A stretch of 64,000 bases of DNA from Spirochaetes bacterium ADurb.BinA120 (GTDB lineage: Bacteria; Spirochaetota; UBA4802; UBA5368), in assembly GCA_002069125.1 (NCBI GenBank), contig MVZN01000001.1:71696-135695 (forward strand), given 5' to 3'. A program made the position numbers and the translations under genes. Of this stretch, positions 5,774 through 39,238 are shown piece after piece; position 1 is the first letter of the stretch, and each line of letters begins with the position of its first letter. The notes under the pieces are model-generated. The model was not told where the DNA came from. It saw only the letters and a list, made by a program, of their open reading frames with translations, and did not search any database.

Positions 5774-6259
5774 CTAACCGGAGGAGAGCTCCAGCCGCTC
5801 CTTGAGCTCGAGGAGGAGCACTACGTGCTTGCGCTCCTCATCGATGAGTTTTTTGAGAACATTCACGGCGTCCACGTCCTTTTCGTGAATCTTCTGGAGC
5901 TCGCTGTAGTAGAGTATCGAGTCCTTCTCCGCGGTCATGGCTATTTTCAATACATCGAATATGGAATTGACCTTCGCGACGACGGCGTCCACATCGTCGT
6001 TATTTCTGAATACCCTGTCTTCGCCAAGGGCCTTAAGGTACTGATAGTATTCGTCGGTGAAGACACCGGGGGCTTCGCCCAGATTGCGGAGCATATTGCC
6101 GAAAACCTCCTTGTGGCGAAGCTCCTCTTCGGCCAGGAAGGCGAGGAGTTCACGGAAATTTGGATCGTCGAACCTCTTTCGTGCCTGGCTGTAAAAATAA
6201 TATCCGGACTCCTCTATGCCAATGGCAATATCGACCAGTTCCTTCGTTGAAAATCTCAT
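5774..6259 (-). CDS. ferritin-like/rubrerythrin-like diiron domain protein (no rubredoxin domain)
   Basis: 161 aa with paired ExxH-type helices (EEELRHKEVF, DEERKHVVLL). Confidence 0.6.
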   Translation of the reverse strand: MRFSTKELVDIAIGIEESGYYFYSQARKRFDDPNFRELLAFLAEEELRHKEVFGNMLRNLGEAPGVFTDEYYQYLKALGEDRVFRNNDDVDAVVAKVNSIFDVLKIAMTAEKDSILYYSELQKIHEKDVDAVNVLKKLIDEERKHVVLLLELKERLELSSG

Positions 6260-6301
6260 TTTCTCTCCTTGCGCGCCGTATCCTGAGGGGCGCGATCTGC
6301 A

Positions 6302-7777
6302 TTAAATCTCCAAGTTTTTAATCAATTCCATAAAAAGCCTCACGCCGTACCCGGTGGCGTTCTTAGGGCGGTAGCCCCGCTGTTTCGATCCCCAGGAGGT
6401 TCCGGCTATGTCCAGATGCGCCCAGGGGGTCGATTTTACGAAAGAGTTTAGAAAGCTCGCGCCGATTATCGTTCCGGCGTTTCGAGTGGACGAGACGTTG
6501 GATATGTCGGCTATATCCGATTTGAGGTCCTCCGCGTAATCCCCATAGAGGGGAAGGCGCCATAGGCGCTCGCCGGTCTCCTCGCCGGCCGCGTGAAGCG
6601 CCCCGGCGAGCTCGTCGCTGGGGGTGAGGAGCCCGGCTATAATCTCCCCGAAACATATCAGGCACGCGCCCGTAAGCGTCGCGATGTCGATTATGTAATC
6701 GGGCTTAAGCCTAAATTCGGTATAGGCGAGCGCGTCGGCCAGGACGAGCCGCCCCTCCGCGTCGGTGTTGCCTATCTCCACAGTCATGCCGTTGTAGGAG
6801 CGATAGACGTCGCCGGGGCGGTAAGAGTTTCCGCCGGGCATGTTCTCGCAAAGCGGGATGACCGCGTACAGGTTCTTTTTCAGCCCGAGTTCCGCCGCGG
6901 CCTTTATCGTATAAATGCAAGCGGCCGCGCCAGCCATGTCGCTGCGCATGTCCTCTATGTGTCCGGAGGGCTTGAGGTTTAGGCCGCCCGAATCGAAGGT
7001 AATCCCCTTGCCGACCAGCGCCAGAGACTTTTTACCGCGAGGGTTGCCGGTGTATTTTAAAATAGCCATACGCGGAGGATTGGCCCCTGCGCGTCCGACC
7101 GCGAGCAGGAGGCCCATGCCGAGCTTTTCGAGTTCACGGCGCCCGAGGACCGTGCAGCTTACGCCCTTCAGCCTGGCGAGTTTTTTGGCCTCCGCGGCAA
7201 TCGATACCGGATTGGCCCGCTCGCTCGTTTCGTTTATAAGATCCCTGCAGAGGAGGGAGTTGGAGCAGATGATGGAGACCTCCCTTAGCAGCCTTGCCGC
7301 GCCGGCTGTGTCTACGGAATGGAAACTGACAGACTGGACCGGGGCGTCGGTTTCGTCCTTGCGGGTTTTATAGCGGTCGAAGGCGTAATTGGCCAGATAC
7401 ATGCCCTCGGCAAGCGCACATAGGACCGGTTTCTCCTCGAGACCCTTAAGGCGCGGGAGAACGACATCGAGCTCCTTTATTTTCATTTTTCGCGCGGTGC
7501 CTGTCACCAATGCCGCGGAGTTTCTTAGCGTTTCGCGAGTGATTTCGGCGGGTTTTCCGAGGCCCGCGATTATAAGCGCAGGCCTTCCGGCGATCGGTAT
7601 AAAGGCGCATTCTCCGCTTTTCCCCCCGAAAAAACCTAGGTTTGCCCGGTCAACGATATGCGAGATATCGTCGGGGATTTCCGCGCCCTTGACATCCTCG
7701 CCGCCCTCGGGGAGAAATAGCGCCACGGTGTCCCGTTCTCCGAACTCGTGTCCTGTTTTGCGCGCAGTCAGTTTCAT
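6302..7777 (-). CDS. pepA: leucyl aminopeptidase (M17)
   Basis: 491 aa with NTDAEGRL motif and conserved M17 catalytic region. Confidence 0.9.
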   Translation of the reverse strand: MKLTARKTGHEFGERDTVALFLPEGGEDVKGAEIPDDISHIVDRANLGFFGGKSGECAFIPIAGRPALIIAGLGKPAEITRETLRNSAALVTGTARKMKIKELDVVLPRLKGLEEKPVLCALAEGMYLANYAFDRYKTRKDETDAPVQSVSFHSVDTAGAARLLREVSIICSNSLLCRDLINETSERANPVSIAAEAKKLARLKGVSCTVLGRRELEKLGMGLLLAVGRAGANPPRMAILKYTGNPRGKKSLALVGKGITFDSGGLNLKPSGHIEDMRSDMAGAAACIYTIKAAAELGLKKNLYAVIPLCENMPGGNSYRPGDVYRSYNGMTVEIGNTDAEGRLVLADALAYTEFRLKPDYIIDIATLTGACLICFGEIIAGLLTPSDELAGALHAAGEETGERLWRLPLYGDYAEDLKSDIADISNVSSTRNAGTIIGASFLNSFVKSTPWAHLDIAGTSWGSKQRGYRPKNATGYGVRLFMELIKNLEI

Positions 7778-32142: not shown

Positions 32143-32350
32143 TCCTTCCTTTGTTTCAATGGATTAATACGGGTAGCTTTCCCCGCATTTGTCAAGCGAA
32201 AGACGCCCGTACAATGAAGACGTTTCGCACCTGAAATATAACGGTTTTTTTTCGGAAAAAACTAAAATTTCCGTCTACGAGGCCGTAGGCGGGATGCTTC
32301 TGGAAAAAGGCTTGATTTACGGGAACGCGGGGCCGTACAGTACACGGACC

Positions 32351-33979
32351 ATGGACCAGCTTCCGGGCGAATATCGAATCGTAAAAATATTCTTTCGGTT
32401 TTTTTCTTCGAGGGCTCTAGCGCTCGCGGTTGCGCTTTCGCTTCCAATCGGATGCGGTGACTTCTCGTCAGTGCGCGACCGGCATACGCTGTACATACAT
32501 CTTGGTTCCGAGCCGGGGCATCTCAATCCCATCACCTCCACCGAGGCCGTTGCCTCGTCCATCAACCAGCACATCTACGAAACGCTTCTCGACCGCGATT
32601 ACGATACCGCCGAACTCGTTCCTCAGCTCGCCGAGTCGTGGTCCATATCGCCGGACAGGCTGCGCTACCGCTTCAGGCTTAAAAAGGGCGTATTCTGGAG
32701 CGACGGCGTGGAGCTCACGGCGGACGATATCATTTATTCATTCAGGACCATTAAGGACCCAAAGGTGGCCTGCGCACCCCTTAAGGTGTATTACATCGAT
32801 GTGCGGGAGGTTCGTAAAATCGACCGCTACACCGTGGAGTTCCTATATTCCAAACAGTACTTCAGAGCCCTGGAGATCTGCGGAACCATTCCCATCGTGC
32901 CTGAGCATATCTTCGCCGACGGCACCGACTTCAACACGCATAAAAACAACCGCTTCCCGGTTGGGACCGGGCCTTACAGGTTCGAGCGCTGGGACACGGG
33001 GAAGCGCATAGTGCTCGTCCGAAACGACAGCTACAAGGGGAAGGCGCCCGATCTGCATCGCATAGTGTATCGAATCGTGGCCGAGCCCAATATCGCGCTT
33101 CAAATGGTTAAAAAAGGAGAGATGGACATGATGTCTGTGCGCGCCATACAATGGGTGCGCCAGACTAATTCCGACAGGTTCGTAAAAAATTTTTACAAAC
33201 TCCAGTATTACCTGCCAACCTATAATTACATCGGCTGGAACGCGGCGCGGCCCCTTTTCGCGGATCGGCGGGTCCGGCTTGCCATGACGCACCTGATAAA
33301 CCGCGATGCGATACTCGACAAGCTGCTCTTCGGTATCGGCGAGGTCGTAAGCGGGTCGTCTTATATCTACAGCAAGGGCTACGATAAAAGCATAAAGCCC
33401 TGGCCCTACGACCCGGAGCGTGCGCGTGAGCTTCTGGCGCGTGCCGGCTGGCGCGATACGGACGGCGACGGCATTCTGGACCGGGCGGGCAAAAAGTTCG
33501 CGTTTACCTTTACCATTCCCTCGGGGAGCAAGTTCGCCGAGCGCCTGGGCACCATCATGAAGGAGGACCTCTCGAAGGTCGGAATCGAGATGGACATCAA
33601 CCGCTACGAGTGGGCCGTGTTCGTACAGAAGCTGCACCAGCGCGATTTCGACGCAGTCACCCTGGCCTGGTCGCTCTCATGGGAAGACGACCCATATCAG
33701 CTCTGGCATTCGACGCAGGTGGCGGGCGGATCCAATTTCTGTTCGTTTAAGAACGCCGAGGCCGACGACCTCATCATCCGCCTGCGAAAGGAATTCGACG
33801 AGAAAAAAAGAATCAGGATGTACCACCGCTTTCATCGAATTCTCCACGAAGAGCAGCCGTACACCTTCCTGTACTGCACTCCCGCGCAGGTCGTCGTCAG
33901 CAAACGCTTCAGCGACGTAAAGGTGCACCTGCGCGGCCTCAACTATCTCGAATGGAAGGTCGCCGCGATCGATGATTAA
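32351..33979 (+). CDS. peptide/nickel ABC transporter substrate-binding protein (family 5, OppA/DppA-like), secreted
   Basis: family-5 SBP length and architecture; signal peptide at proposed ATG 32351 (ORF open from 32189). Confidence 0.85.
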   Translation: MDQLPGEYRIVKIFFRFFSSRALALAVALSLPIGCGDFSSVRDRHTLYIHLGSEPGHLNPITSTEAVASSINQHIYETLLDRDYDTAELVPQLAESWSISPDRLRYRFRLKKGVFWSDGVELTADDIIYSFRTIKDPKVACAPLKVYYIDVREVRKIDRYTVEFLYSKQYFRALEICGTIPIVPEHIFADGTDFNTHKNNRFPVGTGPYRFERWDTGKRIVLVRNDSYKGKAPDLHRIVYRIVAEPNIALQMVKKGEMDMMSVRAIQWVRQTNSDRFVKNFYKLQYYLPTYNYIGWNAARPLFADRRVRLAMTHLINRDAILDKLLFGIGEVVSGSSYIYSKGYDKSIKPWPYDPERARELLARAGWRDTDGDGILDRAGKKFAFTFTIPSGSKFAERLGTIMKEDLSKVGIEMDINRYEWAVFVQKLHQRDFDAVTLAWSLSWEDDPYQLWHSTQVAGGSNFCSFKNAEADDLIIRLRKEFDEKKRIRMYHRFHRILHEEQPYTFLYCTPAQVVVSKRFSDVKVHLRGLNYLEWKVAAIDD

Positions 33980-34973
33980 ATACATCCTCAAACGCCTTCT
34001 GCTCATTGTGCCCACCTTTATCGGCATAAGCCTCATCACCTATGCAATGATACGCCTTGCCCCGGGCGACTATACTACGCTTCGAGCCGGACTTCAGGGC
34101 GAGCTCAAAGCGGGAGCTATAGGCAATGAAATAATAGAACAGGAAAAGAGGCTCTACGGGCTCGACAAGCCGGTCATCGTAGGGTACTGGGACTGGTTTT
34201 CGAAACTCGTGGTGTTCGATTTCGGGACATCCCGAAAGGACGGCAGGCCCGTCGCGGAGCGTATCGGCGAGGCGCTTCCCATCACCCTGGCGCTAAACAT
34301 TATAAGCATGATAATAGTGTACATCATTTCCATTCCGGGAGGGATTCTATCGGCGCTCAAAAAGGACTCCCTCTACGACCGGGTCTCGAGCCTGATACTT
34401 TTTGTGCTCTATTCGCTGCCGTCGTTCTGGGTGGGGCTTCTGCTTCTAATGGTGCTTTCGGGCGGAGACTATCTCAACCTGTTTCCGCTGGGCGGGATAG
34501 TCTCCGACTGGGCGGAGGATTTCGGCTTTTTCGACAGGATGTTGAACATTGCCTGGCACCTAATGCTTCCCGTGGCGACCCTCACCTACGGGGGCTTCGC
34601 CTTCCTCTCGCGCTATACGCGGGCCACCATGCTCGAGGTTATAAACCAGCAGTATATCATGACTGCGCGCGCCAAGGGGCTCTCCGAGAAACGCGTGGTC
34701 CTGGTGCACGCGTTTAGAAACTCTCTCGTACCCCTTGTCACGCTTATGGCGACGATCCTCCCCGGGCTTCTTGGAGGAAGCGTCATAGTAGAATCCATCT
34801 TCTCCATCCCCGGTATGGGCATGCTCGCCTTCGAGGCGATACTAGCGCGCGACATTCCGGTCATAATGGCCATCGCCTCTATCTCCGCGGCGCTTACGCT
34901 CCTCGGCATCCTCATCGCCGATATCCTCTACGGCGTGGTCGATCCCCGCATACGGCTGGAGGCAGGGCAATGA
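33972..34973 (+). CDS. ABC transporter permease (OppB/DppB-like)
   Basis: 333 aa, 6 TM, EAA-like loop; ATGA coupling to flanking genes. Confidence 0.9.
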   Translation: MIKYILKRLLLIVPTFIGISLITYAMIRLAPGDYTTLRAGLQGELKAGAIGNEIIEQEKRLYGLDKPVIVGYWDWFSKLVVFDFGTSRKDGRPVAERIGEALPITLALNIISMIIVYIISIPGGILSALKKDSLYDRVSSLILFVLYSLPSFWVGLLLLMVLSGGDYLNLFPLGGIVSDWAEDFGFFDRMLNIAWHLMLPVATLTYGGFAFLSRYTRATMLEVINQQYIMTARAKGLSEKRVVLVHAFRNSLVPLVTLMATILPGLLGGSVIVESIFSIPGMGMLAFEAILARDIPVIMAIASISAALTLLGILIADILYGVVDPRIRLEAGQ

Positions 34974-35953
34974 TCCGCTCCCGAGGCTATTGGGCCGGCG
35001 TATGGAGGGAGTTCCGGCGCAACAGGCTTGCGCTTTCGGGCCTTGTGGTGGTGCTCGCGCTCTTTGTTGTCGCGCTGCTTGCCCCACTTTTGGCCAACGA
35101 TAAAGCCTATATCTATATCTCGCAGGGGAAGGCGTATTTCCCGATTTTATTCGAATATCCGGAGCTCGCCGGCCTAAACTTTCGCGAGGAGTCCGAAAAG
35201 GCCTTCGTCATCATGCCGCCAATTCCTTACACGAGTTCCGAGTACGATCTCGACGCCATAGTCATACCGCCCTCGGCCCGGCACATACTCGGCACGGACG
35301 AACAGGGGCGGGACCTGGCGGCACGCATGATCCATGGTACGCGCGTGTCGATACTCGTCGGCTTTATCGCGGTGTTCATCTATGTTACACTGGGCATAAT
35401 CATCGGCGCGCTCGCGGGCTATTATGGCGGCGTGGTCGACATGCTCATCTCGCGCTTCATCGAAATAATCATTTGCTTTCCGACCTTTTTTCTCATTCTG
35501 ACCATACTGGCTCTCGTCGGCCCGAGCCTTGTAAATGTCATGGTCGTAATAGGGATAACCGGCTGGACGGGAATCGCGCGCATAGTGCGCGGCGAGTTTC
35601 TAAAGGTGCGCGAGATGGAGTTCGTTCAGGCCTCACGAGCCCTTGGCGCGCGAGACCGCTCCATAATTTTCAGGCACATGCTTCCAAACTCGCTCGCGCC
35701 GGTCCTGGTTTCGGCTACCTTCGGCATAGCCTCGACCATCCTTATCGAGTCGTCCCTTTCCTTTCTGGGTTTCGGCGTACAGCCGCCCACTCCGAGCTGG
35801 GGGGATATCCTTTCGCAGTCGCGCGATTTTATGGACTTCGCCTGGTGGCTCACCCTTGTGCCGGGTTTCGCCATCTTTATCACCATAACAGCCTATAATC
35901 TGGTGGGCGAGGGCTTTCAGGACGCGATAGATCCCCGGGCTGTAAGAAAATAG
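34970..35953 (+). CDS. ABC transporter permease (OppC/DppC-like)
   Basis: 327 aa, 6 TM, conserved permease loop. Confidence 0.9.
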   Translation: MIRSRGYWAGVWREFRRNRLALSGLVVVLALFVVALLAPLLANDKAYIYISQGKAYFPILFEYPELAGLNFREESEKAFVIMPPIPYTSSEYDLDAIVIPPSARHILGTDEQGRDLAARMIHGTRVSILVGFIAVFIYVTLGIIIGALAGYYGGVVDMLISRFIEIIICFPTFFLILTILALVGPSLVNVMVVIGITGWTGIARIVRGEFLKVREMEFVQASRALGARDRSIIFRHMLPNSLAPVLVSATFGIASTILIESSLSFLGFGVQPPTPSWGDILSQSRDFMDFAWWLTLVPGFAIFITITAYNLVGEGFQDAIDPRAVRK

Positions 35954-36001
35954 GCCCCGGCTTGGGACCGAAATCCCGCTATTCGACCGGGCTTTGCGCC
36001 T

Positions 36002-36022
36002 GCGCCTGCCGGGGGCAGACCG
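36002..36022 (+). terminator. stem-loop (ctgcc-ggg-ggcag) after oppC-like gene
   Basis: GC hairpin followed by A/T-rich tract at the GC-to-AT composition switch. Confidence 0.35.
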
Positions 36023-36111
36023 AGTAGGCGAAATTATTTGCTTACATGTTTGCCAAAAAAACAAAAATGTGCTTTACATACTCATTTGTATAGTTCTTTA
36101 TAAATTTTTAA

Positions 36112-36143
36112 GGGAATCTCCAAAAATCAGCATTAAGATTCCC
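36112..36143. repeat. 8-bp inverted repeat gggaatct-N16-agattccc in the islet leader
   Basis: exact reverse-complement arms. Confidence 0.55.
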
Positions 36144-36165
36144 ATAAAATGTAACTACAGGCATA

Positions 36166-36222
36166 TTCAATAATTTGGCTTTCCCGCCCGCCTTCGGCGG
36201 ATGGGAAAACCAAATTATTGGA
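36166..36222. repeat. composite stem-loop: 11-12 bp AT-rich inverted repeat (caataatttgg / ccaaattattg) enclosing a GC-rich hairpin
   Basis: outer arms are exact reverse complements; inner ttccc gcc c gcc ttc ggc g g atgggaa pairing; ~30 nt upstream of MTase start. Confidence 0.6.
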
Positions 36223-36254
36223 GGTTGCCTTAATATTAAAGCAGGATTACGGTT

Positions 36255-37568
36255 TTGAATTCTAAAATAATTATTGGCGATAGTCGCTCAATGAGTGAGA
36301 CTCGAGATCACTCAATAGATTTAATAATAACGTCTCCCCCATACTGGCAAATTAAAGATTATGAAAACGTTAAACAAATTGGATTTGGGCAAAACCTGCA
36401 TGAATATTTAAAGGATTTATATAAAGTATGGAAAGAATGTTATAGGGTAATTAAACCTGGAAGAAGGCTATGCATTAACATCGGCGACCAATTTGCTCGA
36501 TCTATTATTTACGGAAGGTATAAAATAATTCCACTTCATTCAGAGTGTATTTCCCAATGTGAAAGTATTGGTTTCGATTTCATGGGATCGATTATTTGGC
36601 AAAAAAAAACTTCAATGAACACGACCGGCGGTGCTACAATAATGGGCTCTTTCCCTTATCCTCCCAATGGAATGGTCGAGATAGATTATGAATACATCCT
36701 TATATTTAAAAAACCGGGTGACAGTATTAAGCAAGATATAGAAATAAAAAAGAAATCTGAGATAACGAAAGAAGAGTGGAAGGAATACTTCTCCGGCCAT
36801 TGGTATTTTGGTGGCGCAAAGCAAATCGAACACCAGGCAATGTTCCCTGATGAACTCCCGAAAAGACTAATTAAAATGTTTTCCTTTTATGGTGAAACTG
36901 TTTTAGACCCATTTTTAGGAAGCGGAACGACTGTAAAAGTGGCATTAGATTTAAACAGAAACGCTGTAGGTTACGAAATCAATGGAGATTACCTATCAAT
37001 AATTAAAAATAAATTAGGTTTCCCCGAAGATTGTTTATTTTCCAATCATTCTCTTGAAATAATAAACCAGAATATAACTATTATAGAAGAGGATAATGAA
37101 GTCCAATATAATCCGAGCGTTCAAGATGCTGATTACAAGATAGATCCAAAATTATTGAAATTTAAAAAAGGAGATAATAGTTATAAAGTCGTTTCAATTG
37201 AAAATAACGACACTCTTATTCTTAATACGGGCTTAAAGGTGAAATTATTAGGAGTTATAATTGACCCTGAAAAAATCGACGAATTAGTAAATTATTTAAA
37301 CGAATTCGTATTGAAAAAAGAGGTAATTCTAAAATATGATAAAAAGTATCGTCCAGTAACAAAAGACATGATTCATGCATATGTTTATCTAAAAAACAAA
37401 ATATTCATAAATAGTTATATTCTTAAATCCGGATTTGCAAAAGTGGATACCCGTACCGACTATGATTTAAGATATAAATTTTCTAATCTAAGAGACAATA
37501 ATGGAGTAATGGATGGCAAAGGAGTGGATATTAAACAGTGCAATGAATCGGTTCCAACTAAATTTTAA
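36255..37568 (+). CDS. beta-class N4-cytosine/N6-adenine DNA methyltransferase (SPPY motif IV first, FxGSGT motif I later) fused to a C-terminal staphylococcal-nuclease (SNase/OB-fold)-like domain
   Basis: N-term IIIGDSRSM...IDLIITSPPYW, DPFLGSGTT at ~aa 218. C-term ~170 aa matches the SNase signature (VSIENNDTLIL...KVKLLGVIIDPE; ...AYVYL...NSYILKSGFAKV). TTG start at 36255; AT-rich codon usage. Confidence 0.85.
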   Translation: MNSKIIIGDSRSMSETRDHSIDLIITSPPYWQIKDYENVKQIGFGQNLHEYLKDLYKVWKECYRVIKPGRRLCINIGDQFARSIIYGRYKIIPLHSECISQCESIGFDFMGSIIWQKKTSMNTTGGATIMGSFPYPPNGMVEIDYEYILIFKKPGDSIKQDIEIKKKSEITKEEWKEYFSGHWYFGGAKQIEHQAMFPDELPKRLIKMFSFYGETVLDPFLGSGTTVKVALDLNRNAVGYEINGDYLSIIKNKLGFPEDCLFSNHSLEIINQNITIIEEDNEVQYNPSVQDADYKIDPKLLKFKKGDNSYKVVSIENNDTLILNTGLKVKLLGVIIDPEKIDELVNYLNEFVLKKEVILKYDKKYRPVTKDMIHAYVYLKNKIFINSYILKSGFAKVDTRTDYDLRYKFSNLRDNNGVMDGKGVDIKQCNESVPTKF

Positions 37569-38145
37569 AAGAAACGTTGGTGCAGTTTCCCAAGAAATCA
37601 GGAAATGTTCGCCAAGATCGGTTGAAGATTGGAAATGCTACTATTTTGAGAAGGTGCGTCCTAAAGAACATATTGAAGATTTAGGAAAGAAGCTATATAT
37701 TAAAATAACAGAAGTAATAGCCGCAGAAGTTGAAGATATTACGGAAGAAGAATGCATACAATATATGTTTAAACTTGTAATCGACCGTACTTTTGACGGA
37801 TACATGACGGAAATAAAGACTATTTACGGGCAATTACAACAAGTCATTGATTTAAAAATTGAACCGGCCCCGGATAAATGGGATAGATTATACAACATTG
37901 ATTTTTTTATAAAAGTAAAAGACAAATATATTGGGCTTCAAATCAAACCAGTAAGTGGAGTATCCCATATACCAGAAATTTTTAAAGAAAGAAACAATCA
38001 AATGTTAACTCATAAAAAATTTACTGAAGAATTTGGCGGTAAGGTATTCTATGTCTATTCTTTAAAAGACGGTGAGAAAAAGAAAATACATAATCAGGAA
38101 GTAATTCAGGGAATTCAAGACGAGATACTTTTCCTAAGCAGGTAA
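37513..38145 (+). CDS. hypothetical protein, candidate restriction endonuclease partner (PD-(D/E)xK-like D...QxK motif)
   Basis: 210 aa, GGAG RBS 6 nt upstream, overlaps MTase 3' end by 56 nt, same AT-rich codon usage; motif NIDFFIKVKDKYIGLQIKP resembles D-x(n)-(E/Q)-x-K. Confidence 0.4.
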   Translation: MAKEWILNSAMNRFQLNFKRNVGAVSQEIRKCSPRSVEDWKCYYFEKVRPKEHIEDLGKKLYIKITEVIAAEVEDITEEECIQYMFKLVIDRTFDGYMTEIKTIYGQLQQVIDLKIEPAPDKWDRLYNIDFFIKVKDKYIGLQIKPVSGVSHIPEIFKERNNQMLTHKKFTEEFGGKVFYVYSLKDGEKKKIHNQEVIQGIQDEILFLSR

Positions 38146-38185
38146 GGCCGACATCCGAGCACAACGAAACGTACCTCCTTGGTTG

Positions 38186-38194
38186 TTATCCACA
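38186..38194 (+). promoter_or_regulatory. perfect consensus DnaA box TTATCCACA upstream of lipoprotein gene
   Basis: exact 9-mer match. Confidence 0.35.
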
Positions 38195-38275
38195 TACGCC
38201 TTCGACATGTTAAGCCAAAAGGCCGTCGCAGTGTCGCATACTTTGACGTTTTCCGCGACCGAATAATTTAGTATT

Positions 38276-39238
38276 ATGAAGGTGGTGATGGCGCAGCATT
38301 CAAGCCCGAAAGGAATATCGGCGAAAAGCATCATCATGGGGGCCGCGGCCGTCCTGGTCGCGGGATTGGCCTCATGCGCCTCACTTAGAGAGGGCGATCC
38401 GGATGTATACTTCCTGTTGCCCAGGGAGTCCGATATTCCCGGATGGGAGATAGTGGACGGACCGCACCGTTTCGATAAAACGAATATGGCCCTGTATATG
38501 GAGTCCGACGCGGCACTGCTAAGGGAGTATAGAGCCTGGAGCGTGGCGATGGCGATTTACAGGCCCCTGGGGGGCAGGCCGGAAACGCTTGCAGTATGGG
38601 TTTACAGGCTTGGTTCGCCCGTAGATGCATTCGGTTTTTACGCCAGAAAGGCGGCCGCTGTAAGCGGAATACCGGCTCCGCCGCTCGGGGGGGACGACAT
38701 AACGGCCTTCAAAAGCGGCCTCCTGCTAAGAAAGGGCGCCCATTTCGTTTCGATCGTCACCGACAGGCCGGAGGCCGGGGCTGATGCGGTAATTTTCGCG
38801 CGAATCGTTCTGGACTCCATACCGCCGGTGGAATCCGACCTGCCCGAGTGGTCCGGCTTGTTCGGCGCCGATGAAAAGAGGAACGATCTCGTCTATTATC
38901 CGAAGGGGGTGACCGGTGTTCCGCTTAGTGTGGAAATGTTCGTTCGCCGGAGGCTGGTCAGGGGGGCGCCTTACGAGGTGTACTACTCGCGAAGGCCGTC
39001 GATTTCATCGGCCATGCGCGATTTTACAGCCCTGCTGGACCGCGACGGAGGCGGCTTTACGCTAGCGAGTTCCGGCGACAGGCAGGCGGCTTTCAGGCTC
39101 CGACCGGACGGCGGGTACGTGTTCGCCGCAAGATACGAGGACGTCATCTTCGGCGTTTTGTTGGCGGGGACGCTGCCGGATGGGAACAGTGTTATCGGCA
39201 TTCTTATGGATGAGATCTCCGGCGCGGGGAAGGATTGA
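38276..39238 (+). CDS. secreted/lipoprotein of unknown function
   Basis: 320 aa, signal peptide with LAGLASC lipobox-like motif. Confidence 0.6.
   Translation: MKVVMAQHSSPKGISAKSIIMGAAAVLVAGLASCASLREGDPDVYFLLPRESDIPGWEIVDGPHRFDKTNMALYMESDAALLREYRAWSVAMAIYRPLGGRPETLAVWVYRLGSPVDAFGFYARKAAAVSGIPAPPLGGDDITAFKSGLLLRKGAHFVSIVTDRPEAGADAVIFARIVLDSIPPVESDLPEWSGLFGADEKRNDLVYYPKGVTGVPLSVEMFVRRRLVRGAPYEVYYSRRPSISSAMRDFTALLDRDGGGFTLASSGDRQAAFRLRPDGGYVFAARYEDVIFGVLLAGTLPDGNSVIGILMDEISGAGKD

What the first reader, a model, noticed from the sequence alone, without database searches (positions are those of the whole stretch)
36025..38150. AT-rich 2.1-kb islet after oppC carrying an atypical restriction-modification-like gene pair
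Composition and codon usage switch abruptly from GC-rich backbone to strongly AT-rich between the oppC-like terminator (~36020) and ~38150, then switch back. The islet carries only two overlapping genes, a beta-class N4/N6 MTase with a fused SNase-like domain and a 210-aa protein with a PD-(D/E)xK-like motif, plus a highly structured leader. It sits where the opp ATPase genes would be expected and shows no integrase or transposase. A weak direct repeat (cgaaattatttg / cgaataatttag) lies near both edges. Taken together this looks like a compact, horizontally acquired defence module of non-standard architecture.
Basis: partly seen in the sequence, partly recalled or inferred. Interest (0 to 1): 0.8.

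Follow-up and report, generated by a model that had tools for sequence, protein, structure and literature searches.

The report
Inserted CTAG-type restriction-modification gene cassette
The AT-rich islet is a real, horizontally inserted two-gene restriction-modification cassette of the known MjaI/MthZI kind (probably CTAG-specific), so it is an ordinary bacterial defence/selfish module and not a new type of system.

Summary
The composition switch is real. GC falls from about 0.56 to about 0.32, and third-codon-position GC from about 0.70 to 0.28. It is the only such stretch in the 64-kb window. The islet holds two co-directional genes that overlap by 56 nt.

- **Methylase (437 aa):** beta-class DNA methylase with an SPPY motif and a C-terminal staphylococcal-nuclease-like fold that has lost the catalytic residues.
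- **Endonuclease (210 aa):** MjaI-family restriction endonuclease (Pfam PF09568, E 1e-47).

About 25 related Spirochaetota/Leptospirales species keep the same neighbourhood, with oppC directly followed by the DUF6599 gene, so this is an insertion. No opp ATPase genes are "missing" at this site.

The same pair, same overlap and same long methylase occur in thousands of metagenomic proteins. I found them in six other, unrelated genomic contexts. Both proteins are homologous (30-33% identity) to the characterised CTAG system MthZI of plasmid pFZ1. The methylase is 65% identical to a Persephonella methylase that I infer to be M.Pla5I, matched to CTAG in a published methylome.

The proposed direct repeat is no better than chance. 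A 135-nt hairpin-rich leader is real but lineage-specific and unexplained.

Verdict: new member of a known kind, low interest.

The parts
34970..35953 (+). Host oppC-like permease gene, left flank of the insertion
   Evidence: PF00528 and PF12911 OppC_N. It is conserved at 71-91% identity in about 25 related species, where it is followed directly by the DUF6599 gene.
36041..38250 (.). Inserted AT-rich islet. The boundaries are approximate: left edge somewhere in 36001-36062, right edge somewhere in 38165-38250.
   Evidence: GC drop. Cassette homology to other hosts spans 36062-38165. The pair is absent from all related species at this locus. Alignments to the empty sites are only marginally significant (p about 0.03-0.06), so exact junctions cannot be fixed.
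36063..36097 (+). Conserved upstream box (CTTTACATAcTCATTTGTATAGT). I infer it is the cassette's own promoter or operator.
   Evidence: 88-91% identical over 33-36 nt to L101/L102. The same block is present in L106/L107 about 45 nt upstream of the methylase start. Its function is inferred only; the consensus promoter scan did not call it.
36098..36232 (+). Lineage-specific structured leader of about 135 nt, with two hairpins (36106-36149, 14-nt arms; 36168-36220, 25-nt arms at 88% complementarity)
   Evidence: Inverted repeats I17 and I1. RNA fold of 36041-36270 gives -66.1 kcal/mol and z -5.96. It is absent from the cassettes in L101, L106, L107, L104 and L113 but present in the sister lineage L110. 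There is no Rfam match and it is single-copy in the window.
36255..37568 (+). Beta-class DNA methyltransferase gene (437 aa, TTG start). Motif IV SPPY is at residues 27-30 (nt 36333-36344) and motif I FLGSGTT at residues 220-226. Probable N4-cytosine methylase for CTAG.
   Evidence: PF01555, E 4e-46. PADLOC MTase_II PDLC03259, E 1e-124, over residues 3-409. Best solved relative is 2zie (TTHA0409), E 2e-52. 33% identical to the pFZ1 methylase and 65% identical to the Persephonella sp. IF05-L8 methylase P0180. The start-codon position is conserved as TTG, GTG or ATG in other cassettes. dN/dS is 0.06 against the sister lineage.
37167..37499 (+). C-terminal SNase-like (OB-fold) domain of the methylase, residues about 305-415, basic (pI 9.3), with the nuclease catalytic residues not conserved
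37513..38145 (+). MjaI-family Type II restriction endonuclease gene (210 aa, ATG start preceded by GGAG). It overlaps the methylase gene by 56 nt. The putative catalytic residue D130 is at nt 37900-37902 and K145 at nt 37945-37947.
   Evidence: PF09568, E 1.4e-47, profile positions 1-159 of 164. PADLOC REase_II. The exact sequence is named 'MjaI family restriction endonuclease' by NCBI. 30% identical to the pFZ1 (MthZI) endonuclease, E 6e-12. Conserved D130, Q143-x-K145-P146. dN/dS 0.05.
38146..38250 (.). 105-nt tail with about 50% GC, of uncertain origin (donor flank or diverged host spacer)
   Evidence: It lies outside the cassette homology, which ends at 38165. It does not align significantly to empty sites. 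It is conserved at 97% only in the sister lineage.
38276..39238 (+). Host DUF6599 gene, right flank of the insertion
   Evidence: PF20244. It directly follows oppC in related species.

Best explanation
The islet is a self-contained Type II (IIP-like) restriction-modification cassette of the MjaI/MthZI kind. It was inserted by horizontal transfer into the oppC-DUF6599 intergenic spacer of one Spirochaetota (Leptospirales-related) lineage found in anaerobic digester and sewage samples.

Shown: two intact genes under purifying selection, their family membership, and the insertion itself.

Inferred mechanism:
- The beta-class methylase (SPPY motif) puts N4-methyl groups on a cytosine of the palindrome CTAG on host DNA.
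- The MjaI-family endonuclease uses a PD-(D/E)xK-type centre (E101, D130, Q143-x-K145) to cut unmethylated C^TAG in incoming DNA.
- The methylase gene comes first and has a weak TTG start. The endonuclease gene starts from its own GGAG/ATG inside the last 56 nt of the methylase gene. Both are therefore made from one transcript, with methylase ahead of endonuclease and no separate controller protein.
- The methylase's basic C-terminal SNase-like domain has lost the nuclease active site. It most likely acts as an extra DNA-binding module.
- The unit that moves between genomes is essentially just the two ORFs. It has no integrase, transposase or terminal repeats.
For: FAMILY MEMBERSHIP
- PF09568 RE_MjaI, E 1.4e-47, and PF01555, E 4e-46.
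- PADLOC Type II MTase (E 1e-124, near full length) and Type II REase models.
- NCBI's own name for the identical endonuclease.

HOMOLOGY TO A CHARACTERISED CTAG SYSTEM
- pFZ1 carries a methylase plus an MjaI-family endonuclease. They are 33% and 30% identical to the window's proteins.
- MjaI and MthZI cut CTAG, and M.MjaI and M.MthZI make m4C (PMC2615612, PMC5867850, PMC11033074).

SPECIFICITY
- The methylase is 65% identical over 413 aa, including the region where beta-class enzymes carry their target-recognition domain, to the methylase of Persephonella sp. IF05-L8. That gene lies next to a PF09568 endonuclease.
- The strain's methylome has an active Type II CTAG methylase, M.Pla5I, with a partner endonuclease Pla5IP (PMC4752239 supplements).
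- SPPY at motif IV is invariant in the family.

INSERTION
- About 25 related species have SBP-oppB-oppC-DUF6599-Metallophos-FGE without the pair.
- GC is 0.32 against 0.56, and GC3 0.28 against 0.70.

MOBILITY OF THE SAME CASSETTE
- It sits between an HD hydrolase and a VKOR gene (L101), between selA and selB (L103-105), near IS and RT genes (L106), next to a PhdYeFM antitoxin gene (L107), inside an ApeP/PhzF/KR cluster with only 15-nt and 33-nt gaps (L113-116), and after pgi in Persephonella (L119).

FUNCTIONALITY
- Both ORFs are intact in 20 near-identical contigs.
- dN/dS is 0.06 and 0.05 against a sister lineage that shares the insertion.

SNASE-LIKE DOMAIN
-. Loss of catalytic residues. 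Basic pI.
Against: - No enzymatic or methylome data exist for this organism. CTAG specificity is inferred.
- The endonuclease is only 30% identical to MthZI's, and about 33% identical, over its N-terminal half only, to the Persephonella one. Restriction enzymes can change specificity at such distances.
- Equating P0180 with M.Pla5I is an inference, because the locus tag could not be checked here.
- CTAG depletion in the host (9 observed against 44 expected) cannot be used as support. Relatives without the cassette at this locus are equally depleted (ratio 0.17).
- The characterised CTAG methylases are 303-364 aa (PMC5867850) and, to judge by the pFZ1 enzyme, lack the SNase-like domain. The role of that domain is untested.
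- The catalytic 'acidic' position of the (D/E)xK motif is Gln, or Ser in MthZI, so the active-site assignment rests on sequence only.
- No endonuclease of this family has a solved structure.
- The mechanism of insertion is unknown.
Confidence: 0.85

Rival explanations
1. One reading: a compact defence module of non-standard architecture, meaning a new kind of system in which a methylase-nuclease fusion works with a novel PD-(D/E)xK protein.
For: The methylase does carry an extra SNase-fold domain that the characterised CTAG methylases appear to lack: they are 303-364 aa, and the pFZ1 enzyme shows no similarity to it. I found no paper describing this domain in R-M methylases.
Against: The 210-aa protein is a full-length, high-scoring MjaI-family restriction endonuclease. 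The long methylase matches an existing Type II MTase model end to end. It is the common form across the 120 best-scoring homologs listed. The SNase catalytic residues are not conserved, so this is not a methylase-nuclease fusion in any functional sense. The same long-form methylase sits beside a PF09568 endonuclease in a strain with a published CTAG methylome.
Confidence: 0.05
2. A genuine Type II R-M pair of this family, but one that recognises a site other than CTAG.
For: The endonuclease is only about 30% identical to the endonuclease of the characterised MthZI system. It belongs to a different sub-branch from the Persephonella and MthZI enzymes. Host CTAG depletion is not specific to cassette carriers.
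Against: The members of PF09568 with known specificity that came up in the papers and records read here, MjaI and MthZI, both cut CTAG. The methylase is 65% identical, including its variable middle region, to the methylase most plausibly responsible for CTAG methylation in Persephonella. It also shares the SPPY motif of m4C enzymes.
Confidence: 0.12
3. A decaying or domesticated remnant: the methylase acts as an orphan or regulatory enzyme and the endonuclease is inactive.
For: Many public gene calls list the methylase as only 308 or 328 aa. The methylase has a weak TTG start and an odd 135-nt structured leader inserted between the conserved upstream box and the start. MjaI and MthZI are reported to be poorly expressed from their native starts in E. 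coli (PMC2615612).
Against: The short calls are start-codon choices by gene callers. The 437-aa ORF is intact, with substitutions only, in all 20 contigs. Both genes show strong purifying selection (dN/dS 0.05-0.06). The conserved putative catalytic residues of the endonuclease are present.
Confidence: 0.08

Closest known systems
MthZI restriction-modification system of Methanothermobacter plasmid pFZ1 (CTAG; M.MthZI makes m4C)
   Same: Both components are homologous. The pFZ1 endonuclease is PF09568 (E 6e-64) and 30% identical to the window's. The pFZ1 methylase is PF01555, beta-class, and 33% identical over the catalytic core.
   Different: The MthZI genes are convergent, while here they are co-directional (methylase then endonuclease) with a 56-nt overlap. 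M.MthZI is 355 aa and shows no similarity to the SNase-like C-terminal domain.
MjaI system of Methanocaldococcus jannaschii (MJ0984/MJ0985; CTAG, m4C), the prototype of Pfam PF09568
   Same: The endonuclease matches the family model over 159 of 164 positions at 162 bits. The methylase is of the same beta subtype with an SPPY motif (PMC5867850).
   Different: The characterised CTAG methylases as a group, M.MjaI among them, are reported as 303-364 aa, against 437 aa here.
M.Pla5I / Pla5IP of Persephonella sp. IF05-L8 (REBASE names; CTAG motif in the methylome of Blow et al. 2016)
   Same: The strain's long-form methylase (P0180, 414 aa) is 65% identical over 413 aa, including the SNase-like domain. 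It lies directly upstream of a PF09568 endonuclease in the same orientation.
   Different: That endonuclease is of the MthZI-like sub-branch and only about 33% identical to the window's, over the N-terminal half. The genes do not overlap there. That P0180 is M.Pla5I is my inference.
TTHA0409 of Thermus thermophilus (PDB 2zie), a beta-class DNA methylase
   Same: It is the closest solved structure to the methylase core (E 2e-52 by sequence; Foldseek E 4e-18).
   Different: It is 297 aa, has no SNase-like domain and is only a putative methylase.
Mobile R-M gene complexes as described by Furuta, Abe and Kobayashi 2010 (PMC2853133)
   Same: An R-M pair present in one lineage and absent at the same locus in relatives, with foreign composition.
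   Different: None of the mobility signatures catalogued there was found: no linked integrase or transposase, no long target duplication, no flanking inverted repeats.

Membership tests
Type II restriction-modification system | Separate, adjacent methyltransferase and endonuclease genes | tested here: met
   Two overlapping co-directional ORFs. They match PADLOC MTase_II and REase_II models. The pairing recurs in seven independent genomic contexts, counting the window.
Type II restriction-modification system | Methylase with an AdoMet-binding motif I and a catalytic motif IV | tested here: met
   FLGSGTT at residues 220-226 and SPPY at 27-30. These residues are invariant or nearly so (at least 90%) in 34 homologs.
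Type II restriction-modification system | Matching site-specific methylation and cleavage activities | not testable with these tools
   This needs a methylome or enzyme assays. Purifying selection on both genes is only indirect support.
MjaI restriction endonuclease family (Pfam PF09568) | Score above the Pfam gathering threshold over most of the model | tested here: met
   162.1 bits against a cut-off of 22.7, profile positions 1-159 of 164.
MjaI restriction endonuclease family (Pfam PF09568) | Family-wide conserved residues (putative PD-(D/E)xK core) | tested here: met
   D130 and G96 are invariant; Q143-x-K145-P146 and E101 are largely conserved among 30 diverse members, including the pFZ1 enzyme. 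Their catalytic role is inferred.
MjaI restriction endonuclease family (Pfam PF09568) | Cleavage at C^TAG | not testable with these tools
   Known for MjaI and MthZI. Inferred here.
Beta-class N4-cytosine DNA methyltransferases specific for CTAG (M.MthZI / M.MjaI / M.BfaI group) | PF01555 domain with the beta-class permuted order (motif IV before motif I) and SPPY in place of DPPY | tested here: met
   PF01555, E 4e-46. SPPY at residues 27-30 precedes FLGSGTT at 220-226. The same features are described for the CTAG enzymes in PMC5867850.
Beta-class N4-cytosine DNA methyltransferases specific for CTAG (M.MthZI / M.MjaI / M.BfaI group) | Close similarity to an enzyme with demonstrated CTAG specificity | tested here: inconclusive
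   33% identical to the pFZ1 methylase. 65% identical to the Persephonella methylase P0180, but linking P0180 to the CTAG methylome motif is an inference from its PF09568 neighbour.
Staphylococcal nuclease (SNase, PF00565) family | SNase OB-fold | tested here: met
Staphylococcal nuclease (SNase, PF00565) family | Sequence score above the Pfam gathering threshold | tested here: not met
   15.2-15.5 bits against a cut-off of 21. Only a few family members carry a precomputed PF00565 hit.
Staphylococcal nuclease (SNase, PF00565) family | Catalytic and Ca2+-binding residues (D21, R35, D40, E43, R87) | tested here: not met
   The D21 position is Asp in 9 of 22 sequences. The D40-E43 loop is deleted in 13 of 22. 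R87 is replaced mostly by Thr, Met or Val (16 of 22). R35 is Lys in 19 of 22. The alignment of the N-terminal half rests on my reading of the model's secondary structure.
Integrative mobile element (genomic island or transposon) | Integrase, transposase or recombinase gene | tested here: not met
   No integrase- or transposase-sized ORF lies in the islet: beyond the two R-M genes, the ORF listing shows only three short ORFs of 54-73 aa. None is present in the 64-kb neighbourhood genes I examined.
Integrative mobile element (genomic island or transposon) | Target-site duplication or terminal inverted repeats | tested here: not met
   The proposed direct repeat is at chance level. No edge-spanning inverted repeat is longer than about 20 nt at 70-74% complementarity. 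Cassette copies in other hosts share only the two ORFs.

The most novel reading that the evidence does not exclude
The conserved, basic, catalytically dead SNase-fold domain on this very widespread methylase family is an undescribed functional module. It might be a DNA clamp or dimerisation element that sets how the methylase finds CTAG, or a partner-control element towards the endonuclease. In addition, the bare two-ORF cassette spreads between bacterial and archaeal phyla, keeping about 27-33% GC and 74-78% DNA identity in hosts of 30-62% GC, by a route that needs no mobility gene or terminal repeat.
Probability: 0.25. Interest if true: 0.4.

Novelty: new member of a known kind. Interest (0 to 1): 0.2.

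Why it matters
It matters mainly as a clean example. A two-gene R-M cassette has dropped into an intergenic spacer, with empty sites in about 25 sister species, no mobility genes, and unchanged foreign composition although it predates a lineage split of about 4% DNA divergence.

For annotation, it shows that public gene calls often truncate the methylase (308 or 328 aa instead of 437 aa) because of its TTG start.

Two small open points could interest R-M specialists:
- the role of the nuclease-dead SNase-like domain, which is standard in this methylase subfamily but absent from the characterised pFZ1 enzyme M.MthZI and, to judge by length, from M.MjaI;
- the hairpin-rich 135-nt leader that is unique to this lineage.

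Neither point changes the overall picture of an ordinary Type II system.

Tried and rejected
1. CTAG avoidance as evidence for specificity. The host window is strongly depleted (9 observed against 44 expected). However, 22 loci from relatives that lack the cassette at this locus show the same depletion (27 against 164), so I rejected it as evidence.

2. It matches at 7 of 12 positions, which is at or below chance. My earlier impression from MAFFT that both copies pre-exist in the empty site could not be made significant either.

3. Exact junction mapping against empty sites. The intergenic spacers are too diverged. Local alignments reach only p about 0.03-0.06, and a global alignment with cheap gaps gave scattered nonsense. 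I therefore give the boundaries as intervals.

4. A truncated or disrupted methylase, suggested by the 308-aa and 328-aa gene calls. Rejected, because the ORF is intact in every contig.

5. Rfam scan of the leader and the islet: nothing found at E up to 1. The hairpin sequences are single-copy in the window, so this is not a dispersed repeat.

6. Consensus promoter and terminator scan: no more sites than in shuffled sequence.

7. Sequence search of the PDB with the endonuclease: no relative with a solved structure.

8. Viral contigs searched for the endonuclease: no relative found.

9. Literature search for an SNase domain in R-M methylases: nothing relevant. The original MthZI paper is not held in the library.

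10. Search for ABC ATPase signatures (LSGGQ) in all six frames of the window: none found. This is consistent with the ATPases being encoded elsewhere. It is a motif search only.
Full report
**Observation**

The composition switch is real and sharp. In 300-nt windows GC is 0.56-0.60 up to about 35990. It falls to 0.26-0.38 between about 36000 and 38200 and returns to 0.51-0.61 after 38250. In 1-kb bins the two islet bins (0.36 and 0.30) are the only ones below 0.48 in the whole 64-kb window. Third-codon-position GC is 0.28 and 0.29 for the two islet genes, against 0.68-0.72 for seven neighbouring genes.

The islet holds two substantial + strand ORFs. One runs 36255-37568 (437 aa, TTG start). 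The other runs 37513-38145 (210 aa, ATG start preceded by GGAG). They overlap by 56 nt in different frames. The only other ORFs listed there are three short ones of 54-73 aa.

**What the genes are**

The 210-aa protein is a full-length match to Pfam PF09568, the MjaI restriction endonuclease family (E 1.4e-47, 162 bits against a cut-off of 22.7). It also matches PADLOC Type II REase models. The identical sequence exists in public databases under the NCBI name 'MjaI family restriction endonuclease [Spirochaetota bacterium]'.

The 437-aa protein has a PF01555 N6/N4 DNA-methylase domain at residues 21-251 (E 4e-46). It matches one PADLOC Type II MTase model over residues 3-409 (E 1e-124). SPPY (motif IV) is at residues 27-30 and FLGSGTT (motif I) at 220-226, which is the permuted beta-class order. 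These residues are invariant or nearly so (at least 90%) in 34 homologs. Its closest solved relative is Thermus TTHA0409 (2zie; E 2e-52 by sequence, Foldseek E 4e-18).

**The C-terminal domain**

- By sequence the evidence is weak: Pfam SNase scores 15 bits against a cut-off of 21. A profile of the domain hits only staphylococcal nuclease entries in the PDB, the best at E 0.013.
- AlphaFold models give pLDDT 87-92 for residues about 305-415.

The nuclease active site is not conserved.
- The D21 position is Asp in 9 of 22 family members.
- The D40-E43 loop is deleted in 13 of 22.
- R87 is replaced mostly by Thr, Met or Val (16 of 22).
- R35 is Lys in 19 of 22.

The mapping of the N-terminal half rests on my reading of the model. 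The domain is basic (pI 9.3). I therefore read it as a nuclease-dead OB-fold that probably binds DNA. This is an inference. From my own knowledge, beta-class CcrM also needs a C-terminal extension for DNA binding.

**The endonuclease core**

A search of 1.84 billion representative proteins gave 425 family representatives. In an alignment of 30 diverse full-length members, including the pFZ1 and Paenibacillus enzymes, G96 and D130 are invariant. P146 is nearly so. Q143-x-K145 and a Glu near position 101 are mostly conserved. This fits a PD-(D/E)xK-type centre with Gln (Ser in the pFZ1 enzyme) in the acidic position. No member has a solved structure, so the assignment rests on sequence only.

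**It is an insertion**

Twenty contigs from many samples and four NCBI MAGs carry the islet at 99.7-99.96% identity in the same place. There are no indels and both ORFs are intact. The 308-aa and 328-aa methylase calls in those records are start-codon choices at Met130 and Met110, not truncations.

A scan of species-representative genomes with OppC returned about 25 related Spirochaetota/Leptospirales MAG species (OppC 71-91% identical). Most of them show the order SBP-OppB-OppC-DUF6599-Metallophos-FGE. There, OppC and DUF6599 are separated by only about 50-450 bp. None of them has a methylase, endonuclease or ATPase match. The pair is therefore lineage-specific at this site, and nothing supports the idea that opp ATPase genes belong here. 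The window has no LSGGQ signature in any frame.

A sister lineage (L109-L112) shares the insertion. Its cassette is 95-97% identical and its flanks 96.4-96.9% identical, so the insertion predates that split. Between the two lineages dN/dS is 0.06 for the methylase and 0.05 for the endonuclease, so both genes are maintained by selection.

**Boundaries and repeats**

Homology to cassettes in other hosts spans 36062-38165. Empty-site spacers are too diverged for exact junctions (p about 0.03-0.06). I place the left edge in 36001-36062 and the right edge in 38165-38250. A 105-nt tail of about 50% GC (38146-38250) is of unclear origin.

Shuffled edges do as well or better 99% of the time. No terminal inverted repeats stand out.

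**The same cassette elsewhere**

The same pair in the same order, with a 50-56-nt overlap except in L119, occurs in unrelated contexts:
- between an HD hydrolase and a VKOR gene, where the cassette is 31% GC in a 62% GC host (L101);
- between selA and selB (L103-105);
- near IS and reverse-transcriptase genes (L106);
- next to a PhdYeFM antitoxin gene (L107);
- inside an ApeP-like/PhzF/KR/LolA cluster, with only 15 nt before the start and 33 nt after the stop, the cassette at 27% GC in a 58% GC host (L113-116);
- after pgi in Persephonella (L119).

DNA identity to the window is 74-79%. Only the two ORFs are shared, plus in some cases a box of about 25-35 nt. No relative was found on viral contigs.

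**The leader**

The box CTTTACATA(A/C)TCATTTGTATAGT lies about 45 nt upstream of the methylase start in L101, L106 and L107. In the window it is at 36063-36097, about 160 nt upstream. The extra stretch of about 135 nt (36098-36232) contains two hairpins and folds far better than shuffles (z -5.96). It has no Rfam match, is single-copy and is shared only with the sister lineage. Its role is unexplained.

The methylase start-codon position is conserved as TTG, GTG or ATG across cassettes. This supports the 437-aa reading.

**Comparison with known systems and specificity**

MjaI is an active CTAG enzyme, and MthZI is its isoschizomer (PMC2615612). M.MjaI and M.MthZI are beta-class m4C CTAG methylases with SPPY, and the characterised CTAG methylases as a group are 303-364 aa (PMC5867850 and PMC11033074).

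Plasmid pFZ1 encodes a 355-aa methylase and a convergent MjaI-family endonuclease. These are 33% identical (core only) and 30% identical to the window's proteins.

The long-form methylase of Persephonella sp. IF05-L8 (P0180) is 65% identical over 413 aa, including the SNase-like domain. It sits next to a PF09568 endonuclease. That strain's published methylome lists an active Type II CTAG methylase, M.Pla5I, with a partner Pla5IP. Its other three motifs are assigned to m6A enzymes (PMC4752239 supplements). I infer that P0180 is M.Pla5I. The Persephonella endonuclease is of the MthZI-like sub-branch and only about 33% identical to the window's, so this methylase subfamily pairs with two endonuclease sub-branches.

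CTAG depletion in the host (9 observed against 44 expected) is matched in relatives that lack the cassette at this locus (0.17), so it carries no weight.

**Verdict**

The interpretation as a horizontally acquired R-M module is right. The claims of non-standard architecture, displaced opp ATPases and flanking repeats are not supported.

This is a new member of a known kind: a Type II R-M cassette of the MjaI/MthZI family, probably CTAG/m4C. I put the R-M identity and the insertion at about 0.85 confidence and CTAG specificity at about 0.7. The nuclease-dead SNase-like domain and the lineage-specific structured leader are minor open points.

Noticed in passing
window 1-64000 and loci L022-L046, L069: CTAG is the only 4-bp palindrome strongly under-represented in the host sequence (9 observed against 44 expected). 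The same depletion (ratio 0.17) holds in 22 loci from related species that lack the cassette at this locus, so it is a trait of the whole clade.
   Followed up: yes
L001-L020 (gene tables): Most public gene calls shorten the methylase to 308 or 328 aa by starting at internal Met130 or Met110. This removes the catalytic SPPY motif, although the 437-aa TTG-initiated ORF is intact in every contig. It is an annotation artefact.
   Followed up: yes
L103:3779-5639, L104:3743-5639, L105:662-2558: In another organism (GCA_002418835.1 and JGI metagenomes) the same cassette sits between selA and selB, splitting the selenocysteine gene pair.
   Followed up: partly
L113:4001-5891 (also L114-L116): In other Spirochaetota MAGs the cassette (27% GC) lies inside an ApeP-like/PhzF/ketoreductase/LolA cluster (57-59% GC). 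There are only 15 nt before the methylase ATG and 33 nt after the endonuclease stop, so the transferred unit is essentially two bare ORFs.
   Followed up: partly
L119:4001-5868 (Persephonella sp. IF05-L8, JNLJ01000005.1): A long-form methylase 65% identical to the window's is paired with an MthZI-like endonuclease that is only about 33% identical to the window's. This suggests partner exchange between methylase and endonuclease sub-branches within the family.
   Followed up: partly
window 32189-35953 and L021-L046: The SBP-OppB-OppC transporter genes have no adjacent ABC ATPase genes in this genome or in about 25 related species. No LSGGQ signature occurs anywhere in the 64-kb window, so the ATPase subunits must be encoded elsewhere.
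   Followed up: partly
window 38146-38250: A 105-nt stretch of about 50% GC lies after the endonuclease stop. It belongs neither to the cassette homology shared with other hosts nor, detectably, to the ancestral spacer. Its origin is unknown.
   Followed up: partly
L106:1-1101 and 5910-7292; L107:3221-3427: Other copies of the cassette lie next to an IS (rve) transposase pair and a reverse-transcriptase gene, or next to a PhdYeFM antitoxin gene. These copies therefore sit in mobile or defence-rich neighbourhoods.
   Followed up: no
L118:2953-3672 (Paenibacillus polymyxa pSC2): A distant MjaI-family endonuclease (25% identical) on a 510-kb plasmid has no annotated methylase next to it. Its neighbours include DUF262 and ASCH domain proteins.
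   Followed up: no
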